Below are positions 15,003-15,568 of a DNA stretch of 64,000 nt, piece after piece. The stretch covers positions 2,375 through 66,374 of the forward strand of contig JAUWIJ010000005.1 in NCBI GenBank assembly GCA_030605415.1, given 5' to 3'. The DNA is from an archaeon (lineage in GTDB: Archaea; Nanobdellota; Nanobdellia; Pacearchaeales; GW2011-AR1). Position numbers and translations under genes: made by a program. The notes beneath the pieces were generated by a model that saw only the letters and a list, made by a program, of their open reading frames with translations, made no database searches and was not told the origin of the DNA. Position 1 is the stretch's first letter, and each line of letters opens with the position of its first letter.

Positions 15003-15568
15003 TGGCAGGATTAAGAATACAAAAACGAAGAAGGAGAGAAAATAGGACGGATTATAAAGTGCGGCGAATTTTGTTGACGTCGGGAATTCCAAGGATAGTT
15101 GTGCGAAGGACGAACAAATATTTTATTCTTCAGGCTGTTGAGAGTGACGAGGCTCAGGATAAAGTTATTGGGACGCTTACATCTAAGGAACTTCTTAAAA
15201 ATGGTTGGGATGCCAAAGCGGGCGGAAGTTTAAAGTCTATTCCTGCTGGATATTTGACTGGATTATTGATGGCAAGGAAACTCAGAACTCAGAAGGGAAT
15301 TACGGGGAAGAAGTCAGAAGTACCCTCACAAATACAAAAGAAAAAGAGGTTGGGGCAGACACTCGGAAGTCAGTTTATTATGGATTTGGGGATGACAAGA
15401 ACGATTAAGGGTTCGCGAGTTTTTGCGGTTGTTAAGGGATTGATTGATGGCGGTTTGGATATTCCTGCAAATGAAAATGTGTTCCCGTCGGAAGAGAGAT
15501 TAAACGGAGAACATTTGAAAGATGATGTTAAAAATATGATTGCGAAAGTTAGGGGAGGGTTGAAATAA
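15002..15568 (+). CDS. rpl18: 50S ribosomal protein L18 (uL18) carrying an in-frame copy of the repeat core
   Basis: RRRRENRTDY, AGYLTGLL and GSRVFAVVKGLIDGGLDIP motifs. About 22 extra residues (GKKSEVPSQIQKKKRLGQTLGS) lie between them. Confidence 0.92.
   Translation: MAGLRIQKRRRRENRTDYKVRRILLTSGIPRIVVRRTNKYFILQAVESDEAQDKVIGTLTSKELLKNGWDAKAGGSLKSIPAGYLTGLLMARKLRTQKGITGKKSEVPSQIQKKKRLGQTLGSQFIMDLGMTRTIKGSRVFAVVKGLIDGGLDIPANENVFPSEERLNGEHLKDDVKNMIAKVRGGLK
15321..15358 (+). repeat. core of the mosaic element embedded in the L18 coding sequence
   Basis: TACCCTCACAAATACAAAAGAAAAAGAGGTTGGGGCAG compared with the consensus TACCCTCACAnATATAAAGGAnAAnCAGGTTGGGGCAG. Confidence 0.85.

What the first reader, a model, noticed from the sequence alone, without database searches (positions are those of the whole stretch)
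15305..15373. Repeat core is translated inside ribosomal protein L18, with its one in-frame stop erased
L18 carries about 22 extra residues (GKKSEVPSQIQKKKRLGQTLGS) between the conserved AGYLTGLL and GSRVFAVVKG blocks. The DNA there is the element core (15321-15358). In this reading frame the consensus core would give ...TCA CAn ATA TAA.... The L18 copy reads ATA CAA (T to C), which removes the stop. Nearby positions match the AAAAGAAAAAnAGG subtype seen at 43185 and 63319. In-frame tolerance of a mobile repeat in an essential r-protein parallels the Rickettsia palindromic elements, but here it is in an archaeon.
Basis: partly seen in the sequence, partly recalled or inferred. Interest (0 to 1): 0.75.

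Follow-up and report, generated by a model that had tools for sequence, protein, structure and literature searches.

The report
42-base mobile repeat translated inside L18
In a tiny uncultured archaeon, the gene for an essential ribosomal protein has a short dispersed repeat exactly 14 codons long inserted in frame in a surface loop; relatives carry the same repeat in other essential genes, as with the palindromic elements of Rickettsia.

Summary
L18 (uL18, window 15002-15568) has 23 extra residues compared with every solved archaeal uL18, and 27 compared with its nearest orthologue, whose DNA is otherwise about 90% identical.

The insert has two parts. One is heptanucleotide-microsatellite sequence: (AACTCAG)2.3 and (GAAGTCR)3. 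The other is one 42-nt unit (15321-15362) of a dispersed repeat, TACCCTCAC-N17-AGGTTGGGGCA-N5, which interrupts the (GAAGTCR)3 array. The window holds nine units, where 0.14 are expected by chance.

All eight other units read TAA at unit positions 15-17. That is in frame in L18, and the L18 copy reads CAA.

Related Pacearchaeota-like genomes carry the unit in frame and in sense in PolD, eL31, eS19, a tRNase Z-like protein, NrdD and a PP-loop ATPase. None of the 12 copies in this reading frame has the stop, against 15 of 18 other copies. Units also sit nested inside units. Filled and empty sites differ by exactly 42 nt, with no target duplication.

The best reading is a small mobile or copied element that is tolerated and translated in a loop eukaryotic uL18 also expands. 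Translation, the mobilising enzyme and any promoter role are not shown. An archaeal precedent exists (MJRE2 in M. jannaschii), so this is a new variant of a known kind.

The parts
15002..15568 (+). Ribosomal protein L18 (uL18) gene, 188 aa, intact ORF. It sits between L19e and an 83-aa ORF followed by S5.
   Evidence: (PF17144, E = 6e-26).
15302..15370 (+). Codons 101-123 (TGKKSEVPSQIQKKKRLGQTLGS). This segment has no counterpart in any solved archaeal uL18. Compared with the nearest orthologue (L001), the extra DNA totals 81 nt spread over about 15275-15375.
   Evidence: PDB phmmer alignments split at 100/124. DNA alignment to L001. Protein alignment A2. AF2 gives pLDDT below 50 and coil for residues 99-122.
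15279..15294 (+). Heptanucleotide repeat (AACTCAG)2.3 at the 5' edge of the expanded loop, encoding LRTQ. The orthologue in L015 has about four and a half tandem copies of the same heptamer at this site.
   Evidence: TRF. Codon-level comparison.
15310..15320 (+). 5' part of the interrupted heptamer array, GAAGTCA GAAG|.
   Evidence: Sequence. Removing 15321-15362 restores GAAGTCA GAAGTCG GAAGTCA G.
15321..15362 (+). The 42-nt repeat unit (14 codons), TACCCTCAC AAATACAAAAGAAAAAG AGGTTGGGGCA GACAC. It is translated as (V)PSQIQKKKRLGQT(L).
   Evidence: (nhmmer E = 1e-12).
15335..15337 (+). Codon CAA. The eight other window units read TAA here, so C at 15335 removes the only in-frame stop.
   Evidence: Association of stop loss with this frame across genomes.
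15363..15373 (+). 3' part of the interrupted heptamer array, |TCG GAAGTCA G.
6273..6314 (+). Unit copy in the L23-L2 spacer, inside a (TGTTCGG)n array. Reads TATAAA.
10132..10173 (+). Unit copy in the spacer after S17. It is part of a 142-nt module that is 90% identical to the module at 16635-16776.
   Evidence: (family D5).
12894..12935 (+). Unit copy in the S14-S8 spacer. The relative L001 has the flanking heptamers here but no unit.
16700..16741 (+). Unit copy in the S5-L30 spacer.
20649..20690 (+). Unit copy in the spacer between the HIT gene and the EMC3-like gene.
43185..43226 (+). Unit copy in a convergent intergenic region, flanked by AGAACTGAG-type repeats. This subtype has an extended stem (CCTAT/ATAGG).
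63319..63360 (+). Unit copy of the same subtype as 43185.
63421..63462 (+). A more diverged unit copy, 102 nt downstream of the previous one.
   Evidence: (family D2).
7078..7133 (+). Empty intergenic module (GGACGC|TTCGCT with no unit). Filled modules differ from it by exactly 42 nt. Further empty modules lie at 14110-14165 and 57417-57495.
   Evidence: (family D3).

Best explanation
The extra segment in L18 is a two-layer insertion in the loop between the long helix (residues 80-96) and the following strand.

First layer: this loop acquired heptanucleotide-microsatellite sequence, (AACTCAG)n and (GAAGTCR)3. Other lineages of the same clade show the same kind of sequence at the same site.

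Second layer: one 42-nt unit of a dispersed, imperfectly palindromic repeat (TACCCTCAC, an A-rich TATA-like centre, AGGTTGGGGCA, then 5 variable nt) was inserted into that array at GAAG|TCG. I cannot tell whether this happened by transposition or by templated copying.

The unit is exactly 14 codons long and lies in the sense orientation, so the frame is kept. The only stop it would bring into this frame (TAA, unit positions 15-17) reads CAA in the L18 copy. The unit is therefore read through as a basic, hydrophilic 14-aa stretch (PSQIQKKKRLGQT) in a flexible loop that tolerates length change.

Shown: the insertion, its repeat identity, the 42-nt filled/empty difference, nesting, in-frame copies in other essential genes, and frame-specific absence of the stop.

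Inferred: that the peptide is made, that the loop is solvent-exposed on the 50S subunit, and that the element is selfish and mobile. The enzyme that moves it is unknown.
For: - Insertion compared with solved archaeal uL18 and with orthologues about 90% identical in DNA.
- Nine units in the window against 0.14 expected, plus four more in the 8.4 kb upstream of the window.
- The L18 unit is 34-38/42 identical to the other units.
- Filled and empty sites differ by exactly 42 nt. Examples are GGACGC|TTCGCT (family D3) and APKG|PPAQ, which is filled in L006 and L012 and empty at window 3832-3890 and 7917-7975.
- Nested L-L-L-R-R-R arrays split as 23+19 nt.
- The nearest relative's r-protein operon has no units. 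Only 2 of 185,579 representative genomes and 3 true metagenome contigs carry the unit.
- In-frame sense copies occur in PolD DP2, eL31, eS19, an MBL/tRNase Z-like protein, NrdD and a PP-loop ATPase.
- Stop at unit positions 15-17: 0 of 12 copies in this frame (0 of 8 independent sites) against 15 of 18 other copies, Fisher p = 1e-5 and 1e-4.
- Heptamer repeats occupy the same loop in relatives and are pervasive in the window.
- AF2 predicts the loop as low-confidence coil. Yeast uL18 has about 27 extra residues at the same loop.
- An independent assembly is identical.
Against: - There are no transcript or peptide data.
- No transposase, reverse transcriptase or integrase was found among the 30 window ORFs scanned between 27 and 57 kb.
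- There is no target-site duplication and no conserved target motif, so the mode of movement is undefined.
- Within the source genome alone, the stop-loss argument rests on one genic copy (p = 0.08).
- The C15 variant is shared with genic copies in other genomes. The T-to-C change may therefore predate insertion rather than be a post-insertion repair.
- A unit-like variant occupies the TATA position of the L1 operon promoter. Intergenic copies may therefore be functional promoters rather than purely selfish DNA.
- The AF2 model is only moderate (mean pLDDT 63).
Confidence: 0.75

Rival explanations
1. The unit is mainly a cis-regulatory module: an archaeal promoter or operator with a TATA-like centre between two conserved arms. 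On this view it spread by duplication because it drives or regulates downstream genes, and the L18 copy is an internal, now weakened, promoter for S5-L30-L15-SecY rather than selfish DNA. This is compatible with the copy being translated.
For: - The centre of intergenic units reads ATATAAA.
- A 37-nt unit-like variant with TTTATAAA lies 80 nt upstream of the L1 start codon. Relatives lacking the arms have their TTTATAAA at -81 and -83.
- All six informative units in the r-protein cluster are co-oriented with the genes and lie 65-100 nt upstream of start codons.
- The arms are invariant but show no RNA covariation, as expected for a protein-binding DNA site.
Against: - Several units lie in convergent 3' regions with no downstream gene: 43185, 63319, 63421 and L020 5872-6197.
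- Nested L-L-L-R-R-R arrays and copies inside PolD, NrdD and other genes have no obvious promoter logic.
- The tRNA and 5S promoters of this genome read TTTTTATA on the coding strand, whereas the units read ATATAAA.
- The L18 copy has lost the TATA (ATACAAA).
- The close relative runs the same operon without any units.
Confidence: 0.2
2. The unit reached L18 by ectopic gene conversion or template switching between heptamer-repeat arrays, using the microsatellite flanks as homology. On this view no dedicated transposition machinery was involved.
For: - Units are embedded in heptamer arrays at nearly all sites, and removing a unit restores the array.
- There is no target-site duplication, and no transposase was found in the ORFs scanned.
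- Whole 142-nt modules are duplicated at 90% identity (family D5).
Against: - The L18 flanks (GAAGTCR) match the flanks of no other copy seen (TGTTCGG, AGAACTSAG, GGACGC/TTCGCT).
- Units also sit in non-repeat contexts such as APKG|PPAQ and the tRNase Z-like gene.
- Nested insertion at one fixed internal position, 23|24, suggests site-directed insertion.
Confidence: 0.2
3. The 42 nt are removed from the L18 mRNA, as an intron-like or bulge-helix-bulge element, so the ribosome never contains the peptide.
For: - The unit is a discrete block with conserved ends.
- Units lie in the sense orientation at all sites where orientation is informative.
- Archaea do splice BHB introns from a few mRNAs (background knowledge).
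Against: - The 3' exon positions that would have to pair with unit positions 2-5 (ACCC) read TCGG, TTCG, ACCG or TACC, so no bulge-helix-bulge can form at the junctions (inspection).
- Folding is weak: -4.3 kcal/mol, no better than shuffled sequence. There is no covariation.
- If units were spliced out, nothing would select against the in-frame TAA. Yet 0 of 12 copies in this frame keep it, against 15 of 18 others.
- No split gene flanks a stop-bearing unit in the window.
Confidence: 0.04
4. The finding is an assembly chimera or a decaying pseudogene copy of L18.
For: Repeats can mislead assemblers, and this is a metagenome contig.
Against: - The contig has 41x coverage, and an independent Logan assembly is identical over 2.6 kb.
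- The ORF is intact and all conserved uL18 blocks are preserved.
- It is the only L18 gene in a syntenic operon.
Confidence: 0.02

Closest known systems
Rickettsia palindromic elements (RPE; Ogata et al. 2000, as described in PMC2229807 and PMC10969869)
   Same: - Dispersed short repeats found both between genes and in frame inside conserved housekeeping genes.
- The encoded peptide is tolerated.
- The host has a reduced genome.
- Terminal arms are imperfectly palindromic.
   Different: - 42 nt here against 105-150 nt for RPEs.
- No stable long hairpin.
- No sequence relationship to RPEs, and an archaeal (Pacearchaeota-like) host.
- Units nest inside units and sit in heptamer microsatellites.
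- The centre is TATA-like.
MJRE palindromic repeats of Methanocaldococcus jannaschii (Suyama et al. 2005; known to me from memory and cited in PMC2229807)
   Same: Archaeal repetitive elements with coding potential, some of them fused into protein genes without disrupting them.
   Different: The lineage is different (a euryarchaeon). I had no MJRE sequence to compare. To my knowledge MJRE elements are older and more diverged, and only three were found within genes.
MITEs (non-autonomous DNA transposons)
   Same: Small, multicopy, with imperfect terminal inverted repeats (10/13 in the 43185 subtype). Filled and empty sites exist, and the distribution is lineage-specific.
   Different: - No target-site duplication.
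- No related IS or transposase found.
- 42 nt is below the usual MITE size range.
- Orientation is strictly sense at all informative sites.
REP/REPIN elements mobilised by RAYT (IS200/IS605-like) transposases
   Same: Imperfect palindromes of 20-40 nt, no target duplication, and strand-biased distribution.
   Different: - REPs are extragenic and carry a GTAG or CGTC head; neither is present here.
- No RAYT or TnpA was seen.
- A minus-strand copy follows a minus-strand gene 200 nt from plus-strand copies. Orientation therefore does not simply track the replication strand.
Eukaryote-specific expansion of the same uL18 (L5) loop
   Same: Yeast uL18 has about 27 extra residues between the TGLLIARR helix and the FLDIGL strand, exactly where the archaeal insert lies.
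   Different: The eukaryotic segment is ancient, conserved and unrelated in sequence. It does not derive from a repeat.

Membership tests
RPE-like in-frame palindromic repeats (functional class) | The same repeat is present both between genes and in frame within conserved protein genes, without breaking the ORF. | tested here: met
   L18 in the window. PolD DP2, eL31, eS19, an MBL/tRNase Z-like protein, NrdD and a PP-loop ATPase in relatives.
RPE-like in-frame palindromic repeats (functional class) | Palindromic sequence able to form a long, stable stem-loop. | tested here: not met
   The arms form 6 invariant pairs with one mismatch. MFE is -4.3 kcal/mol, no better than shuffled sequence. Only one subtype reaches -11.8 kcal/mol. 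There is no covariation.
RPE-like in-frame palindromic repeats (functional class) | The insertion lies in a surface-exposed, structurally tolerant part of the host protein. | tested here: inconclusive
   AF2 predicts the loop as coil with pLDDT below 50. Yeast uL18 is expanded at the same loop. The position on an archaeal 50S structure could not be modelled with these tools.
RPE family proper (RPE-1 to RPE-10) | Sequence homology to Rickettsia RPE consensus sequences, length 105-150 nt, Rickettsia host. | tested here: not met
   The unit is 42 nt and the host is archaeal (L19e, L32e, S4e, STT3). No RPE sequences were compared directly.
MITE | Terminal inverted repeats. | tested here: inconclusive
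   TACCCTCACCTAT against ATAGGTTGGGGCA matches 10/13 in one subtype, and about 6 of 8 in the others.
MITE | Target-site duplication of fixed length. | tested here: not met
   Filled and empty sites differ by exactly 42 nt, with only 0-4 nt of incidental microhomology.
MITE | A cognate autonomous IS or transposase sharing the ends. | tested here: inconclusive
   None found among the 30 window ORFs scanned between 27 and 57 kb, nor among the precomputed Pfam hits for called genes in the source-contig loci that overlap or lie upstream of the window. The rest of the genome was not available.
REP/RAYT | Conserved GTAG or CGTC head, extragenic location, and a RAYT gene. | tested here: not met
   The unit starts with TACC, many copies lie within genes, and no Y1 transposase was detected.
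Archaeal BHB intron | A bulge-helix-bulge motif formed across both junctions. | tested here: not met
   The flanking exon bases cannot pair with the unit's 5' end at any of the sites (inspection). Frame-specific stop purging argues that the unit is translated.
Archaeal BRE/TATA promoter | A TATA box about 25 nt upstream of a mapped transcription start, oriented by a BRE. | not testable with these tools
   Sequence evidence only. The centre reads ATATAAA. A unit-like variant has TTTATAAA at -80 from the L1 ATG, matching -81 and -83 in relatives. No TSS data are available.
uL18 (Ribosomal_L5e/L18P) | Pfam PF17144 above its cut-off, conserved blocks, and operon position between L19e and S5. | tested here: met
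   91.8 bits against a cut-off of 27. PDB hits at E = 4e-27. Synteny.

The most novel reading that the evidence does not exclude
The units may represent an undescribed class of archaeal mobile element with these properties: exactly 14 codons long, and carrying a TATA-like centre. They would insert without target duplication into heptanucleotide microsatellites and into their own centre, producing nested arrays. They would always lie in the transcribed sense, which suggests a transcription-coupled or RNA-templated mechanism. On this reading, Pacearchaeota-like genomes use or tolerate them both as portable promoters and as 14-aa loop cassettes in core proteins such as uL18, PolD, eL31, eS19, tRNase Z and NrdD.
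Probability: 0.3. Interest if true: 0.8.

Novelty: new variant of a known kind. Interest (0 to 1): 0.6.

Why it matters
- It extends the "selfish DNA inside protein-coding genes" phenomenon, best known from Rickettsia, to DPANN-type archaea with very small genomes. The host genes include a ribosomal protein and the replicative polymerase.
- At 42 nt, the unit is far shorter than the 105-150-nt RPEs.
- Frame-specific loss of the one stop gives a clear comparative signature that such inserts are read through.
- Three features are not explained by known transposition chemistries and may point to a new insertion mechanism: the link to heptanucleotide microsatellites, the nesting, and the TATA-like centre.
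- In practice, these units cause gene callers to predict spurious small ORFs in the spacers. They also inflate apparent protein divergence in phylogenomic marker genes such as uL18.

Tried and rejected
- **BHB intron.** I checked the junction bases of about 30 units by eye. No 4-bp central helix can form between the unit's 5' end and the 3' flank. Rejected.
- **Structured RNA.** MFE is -4.3 kcal/mol with z above 0. Covariation across 24 units is no better than shuffles. Rfam gathering and E-value scans gave nothing at any unit. Rejected as the main explanation.
- **Target-site duplication.** I compared bases at an offset of 42 on both flanks and found only incidental matches of 0-4 nt.
- **Mobilising enzyme.** Pfam on 30 window ORFs between 27 and 57 kb found glycosylation, transport, HEPN/NTase and r-protein genes, but no transposase or reverse transcriptase.
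- **Viral origin.** There were 0 hits in IMG/VR.
- **Wider distribution.** The genome-contig scan found only two MAGs. The metagenome scan gave 3 true hits and 2 chance hits.
- **Orientation as evidence of mechanism.** Copies in convergent or divergent spacers are sense to one neighbour whichever way they point, so they carry no information. Only the six operon copies and the genic copies count. One array in L008 (3168-3506) may be antisense to two unannotated ORFs; this is unresolved.
- **Downstream extension of the source contig.** The look-up of the ORF at 61181-61663 found nothing on record.
- **MAFFT alignment of the L1 upstream regions.** It was ambiguous, so I used distance to the start codon instead.
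- **uL3 insert check against PDB.** It was inconclusive because that region varies among solved structures.

Full report
**Observation.** The L18 gene is window 15002-15568 (+), 188 aa, and matches Pfam Ribosomal_L5e at E = 6e-26. It lies in an archaeal r-protein operon between L19e and S5. In phmmer against all PDB chains, the alignment to every archaeal uL18 splits in two: query 5-100 aligns to chain 8-98, and query 124-179 to chain 100-155. Residues 101-123 (TGKKSEVPSQIQKKKRLGQTLGS; DNA 15302-15370) are therefore an insertion. Among 797 homologues the exact protein occurs once, on a 99.8-kb contig. The nearest relatives are 161-162 aa and lack the segment (alignment A2). The orthologous gene in L001 is about 90% identical in DNA on both sides of the loop but is 81 nt shorter.

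The DNA at 15320-15360 matches the pattern shared with 43184 and 63318 with no mismatch, where 0.00 matches are expected. The 3' block AGGTTGGGGCAGAC occurs nine times in the window, all on the + strand, where 0.14 are expected. The reading frame is GTA CCC TCA CAA ATA CAA AAG. All eight other window copies have T where L18 has C (15335), which would give an in-frame TAA. An independent Logan assembly (L019) is identical to the window over 2599 nt, including the insert, and the ENA contig has 41x coverage.

**Anatomy of the repeat.** Comparing filled with empty sites shows that the unit is exactly 42 nt: TACCCTCAC, 17 A-rich nt (ATATAAA in most copies), AGGTTGGGGCA, then 5 variable nt.
- GGACGC|TTCGCT is empty at 7078-7133, 14110-14165 and 57417-57495, and filled at 10132, 16700 and 20649.
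- ...AGAACTGAG|ACCGCTTCGCTC is filled at 43185, 63319 and 63421.
- APKG|PPAQ (GGGTG|TACCTCC) is empty at window 3832-3890 and 7917-7975. It is filled in L006 and L012.

There is no consistent target-site duplication. A profile search finds only these nine copies in the window. Four more lie in the 8.4 kb upstream on the same contig, one of them on the minus strand just downstream of a minus-strand gene.

The arms are an imperfect inverted repeat, but the RNA fold is weak: -4.3 kcal/mol, no better than shuffled sequence. Only the 43185-type subfamily has an extended stem (-11.8 kcal/mol, z = -2.8). Across 24 units the six outer pairs never vary, the inner pairs are mostly unpaired, and covariation is no better than shuffles. 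No Rfam family matches.

**The L18 insert is composite.** Removing 15321-15362 leaves GAAGTCA GAAGTCG GAAGTCA G, a three-unit heptamer array. Just upstream lies (AACTCAG)2.3 at 15279-15294. Heptanucleotide arrays are common in this genome, with about 14 in 64 kb. Intergenic units also interrupt them, at TGT|TCGG and AGA|ACTC.

The same L18 loop holds other repeat-derived insertions in relatives. L015 has four to five tandem copies of (AGAACTC), translated as RTQNSELRTQ. L016 has AGAACTGAG-type sequence. P0022, P0040, P0047, P0068 and P0094 carry other inserts of 12-22 aa. The loop is therefore a hot spot. The window's allele most likely arose in two steps: microsatellite growth, then insertion of the 42-nt unit.

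**Generality.** Scanning 185,579 representative genomes found the unit in only two other MAGs. Both are labelled only "archaeon"; one is the MAG that carries the nearest L18 orthologue. JGI metagenomes gave three true hits and viral contigs none. Names on homologues place the clade in Pacearchaeota/"Nanoarchaeota", that is, DPANN.

In these relatives many units lie in frame and in sense inside long ORFs. The hosts, identified by Pfam or PDB, are:
- PolD large subunit, with two tandem and three nested units. The PDB alignment breaks at both sites, with about 50 extra residues at the nested site.
- eL31, eS19, an MBL/tRNase Z-like protein, NrdD and a PP-loop ATPase.

Most are read in the same frame as in L18 ([VIL]PSQI[QK]..K..LGQT). 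None of the 12 such copies (8 independent sites) has a stop at unit positions 15-17, against 15 of 18 copies that are intergenic or in other frames. Fisher p = 1e-5 for all copies and 1e-4 for independent sites. This frame-specific purging is the main argument that genic units are translated rather than removed.

The L18 unit is closest (38/42) to the eL31 genic copy of another MAG and shares C15 with it. A stop-free variant may therefore have been what inserted, rather than a stop being repaired afterwards.

Nested arrays such as L-L-L-R-R-R in L005 split each outer unit at 23|24 (23 + 19 = 42). This indicates repeated insertion of units into units.

**Tolerance in L18.** An AF2 model built on the 22-sequence alignment A2 is moderate (mean pLDDT 63). 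It places residues 99-122 as coil with pLDDT below 50, between helix 80-96 and strand 126-128. I recalled the yeast uL18 sequence from memory and verified it as identical to PDB 3j6x_L5. It has about 27 extra residues at exactly this loop (alignment A3). I could not dock the model on a 50S structure with these tools.

**What the unit may do elsewhere.** The tRNA and 5S promoters of this genome read TTTTTATA about 30 nt upstream. A 37-nt unit-like variant (L020 481-517) carries TTTATAAA 80 nt before the L1 start codon. Two relatives that lack the arms have TTTATAAA at -81 and -83. Units in the operon spacers lie 65-100 nt upstream of start codons and are co-oriented with the genes. A portable-promoter role is therefore plausible for intergenic copies. 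It does not explain copies in convergent 3' regions, nested arrays or copies within genes. In L18 the TATA-like centre is degraded (ATACAAA).

**Alternatives.**
- Bulge-helix-bulge intron: rejected. The junction bases cannot form the central helix, and splicing would remove the selection seen.
- Assembly artefact or pseudogene: rejected.
- Gene conversion between heptamer arrays, instead of transposition: cannot be excluded as the route into L18.
- Mobilising enzyme: none found among the ORFs scanned between 27 and 57 kb.

**Comparison with what is known.** The behaviour matches that of Rickettsia palindromic elements: dispersed repeats fused in frame into conserved genes, with the gene product still functional (PMC2229807, PMC10969869). 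An archaeal precedent exists. Suyama et al. 2005 reported repetitive elements of M. jannaschii fused into protein genes, as cited in PMC2229807; I recall the details from memory only.

The present element differs in several ways: length (42 nt, exactly 14 codons), no stable hairpin, no target duplication, nesting, association with heptamer microsatellites, a TATA-like centre, and host lineage. It fails the defining tests for MITE (no target-site duplication), REP/RAYT (no GTAG or CGTC head, copies within genes) and BHB intron.

**Verdict.** It is a new variant of a known kind. Interest is moderate to high (0.6) because the phenomenon recurs in several core proteins across a DPANN clade and the insertion mechanism is unexplained.

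Noticed in passing
window 3832-3890 (in L3), 7917-7975 (L22 N-terminus), 11366-11396 (L24-like C-terminus); also L020 2350-2380 (in L10/P0): A second in-frame repeat, about 59 nt and 88% identical between L3 and L22, encodes APKGVPPAQMASADADKVG. It contains a small hairpin (TCYGC-TGAC-GYRGA) whose stem changes in a compensatory way between copies: TCTGC/GCAGA, TCCGA/TCGGA and TCCGC/GTGGA. In relatives this module sits in eL31 and eS19 and is itself a target for the 42-nt unit.
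   Followed up: partly
window 2236-2354, 10111-10127, 12879-12894, 21177-21208, 43262-43285, 49863-49897, 54346-54431, 57423-57472, 61708-61731, 63499-63523: Heptanucleotide tandem repeats are pervasive: (ATTTGGG), (TTCGGTG), (CAGAACT), (TCTGAGT), (AGTTGGT) and others, mostly in spacers. Several are open in all sense reading frames. Their origin and their link to the 42-nt unit are unexplained.
   Followed up: partly
window 6213-6335, 7060-7150, 10067-10208, 14077-14165, 16635-16776, 49833-49900, 57392-57495: Composite intergenic modules of about 90-140 nt. Each has a perfect hairpin (TGAAATCAAAGATTTCA) right after the upstream stop codon, then heptamers, GGACGC(unit)TTCGCT, and GGGGCTTGRGCAACT just before the Shine-Dalgarno sequence. 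They are variably present compared with the close relative L001, where most of these genes abut. The deposited gene calls predict 33-49-aa ORFs across them.
   Followed up: partly
L020 481-517 (8 kb upstream of the window on the same contig): A 37-nt unit-like variant, TACCCTCACTGATTTATAAAATTGGTTGGGGCATACC, has its TTTATAAA at -80 from the L1 start codon. This is the same distance as the TATA box in two relatives that lack the arms.
   Followed up: yes
window 15568-15819; also 7155-7466, 10218-10577, 13364-13552, 17650-18194: Small ORFs with no Pfam match are intercalated in the r-protein operon. The 83-aa ORF between L18 and S5 is absent from relatives L001 and L015, where L18 abuts S5.
   Followed up: no
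L005 3093-6881 (MAG CBDVEE01): The PolD large-subunit gene carries five units: two in tandem (APSQIQNKNWLGQT LPSHIQNKNWLGQT), and three nested in different frames, adding about 50 residues compared with P. abyssi DP2.
   Followed up: partly
window 43060-43340 and 63240-63610; L020 5850-6290: Convergent intergenic regions are filled with tandem repeats of about 23-30 nt (GACCGCTTCGCTC...AGAACTGAG) and inverted AGAACTGAG/CTCAGTTCT arms. The 3' 60 nt (43280-43339 and 63547-63606) are 83% identical. These may be bidirectional terminator regions.
   Followed up: no
window 55293-55412: A 55-nt unit is duplicated in tandem (90% identity). It starts with ATGGCTAAAG and ends with a Shine-Dalgarno-like AGGAGATTGAAAA, immediately upstream of the DUF655 gene.
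   Followed up: no
window 19712-20089 (L018 14753-15088): A gene of the 23S_rRNA_IVP family (PF05635) sits between SecY and a HIT-family gene. From memory, the accessory proteins of diversity-generating retroelements belong to this family. No reverse transcriptase was seen nearby.
   Followed up: no
window 38386-39440 and 52437-53122: Two HEPN / nucleotidyltransferase-type pairs that look like toxin-antitoxin modules. A BRO-N domain protein lies at 39499-40326.
   Followed up: no
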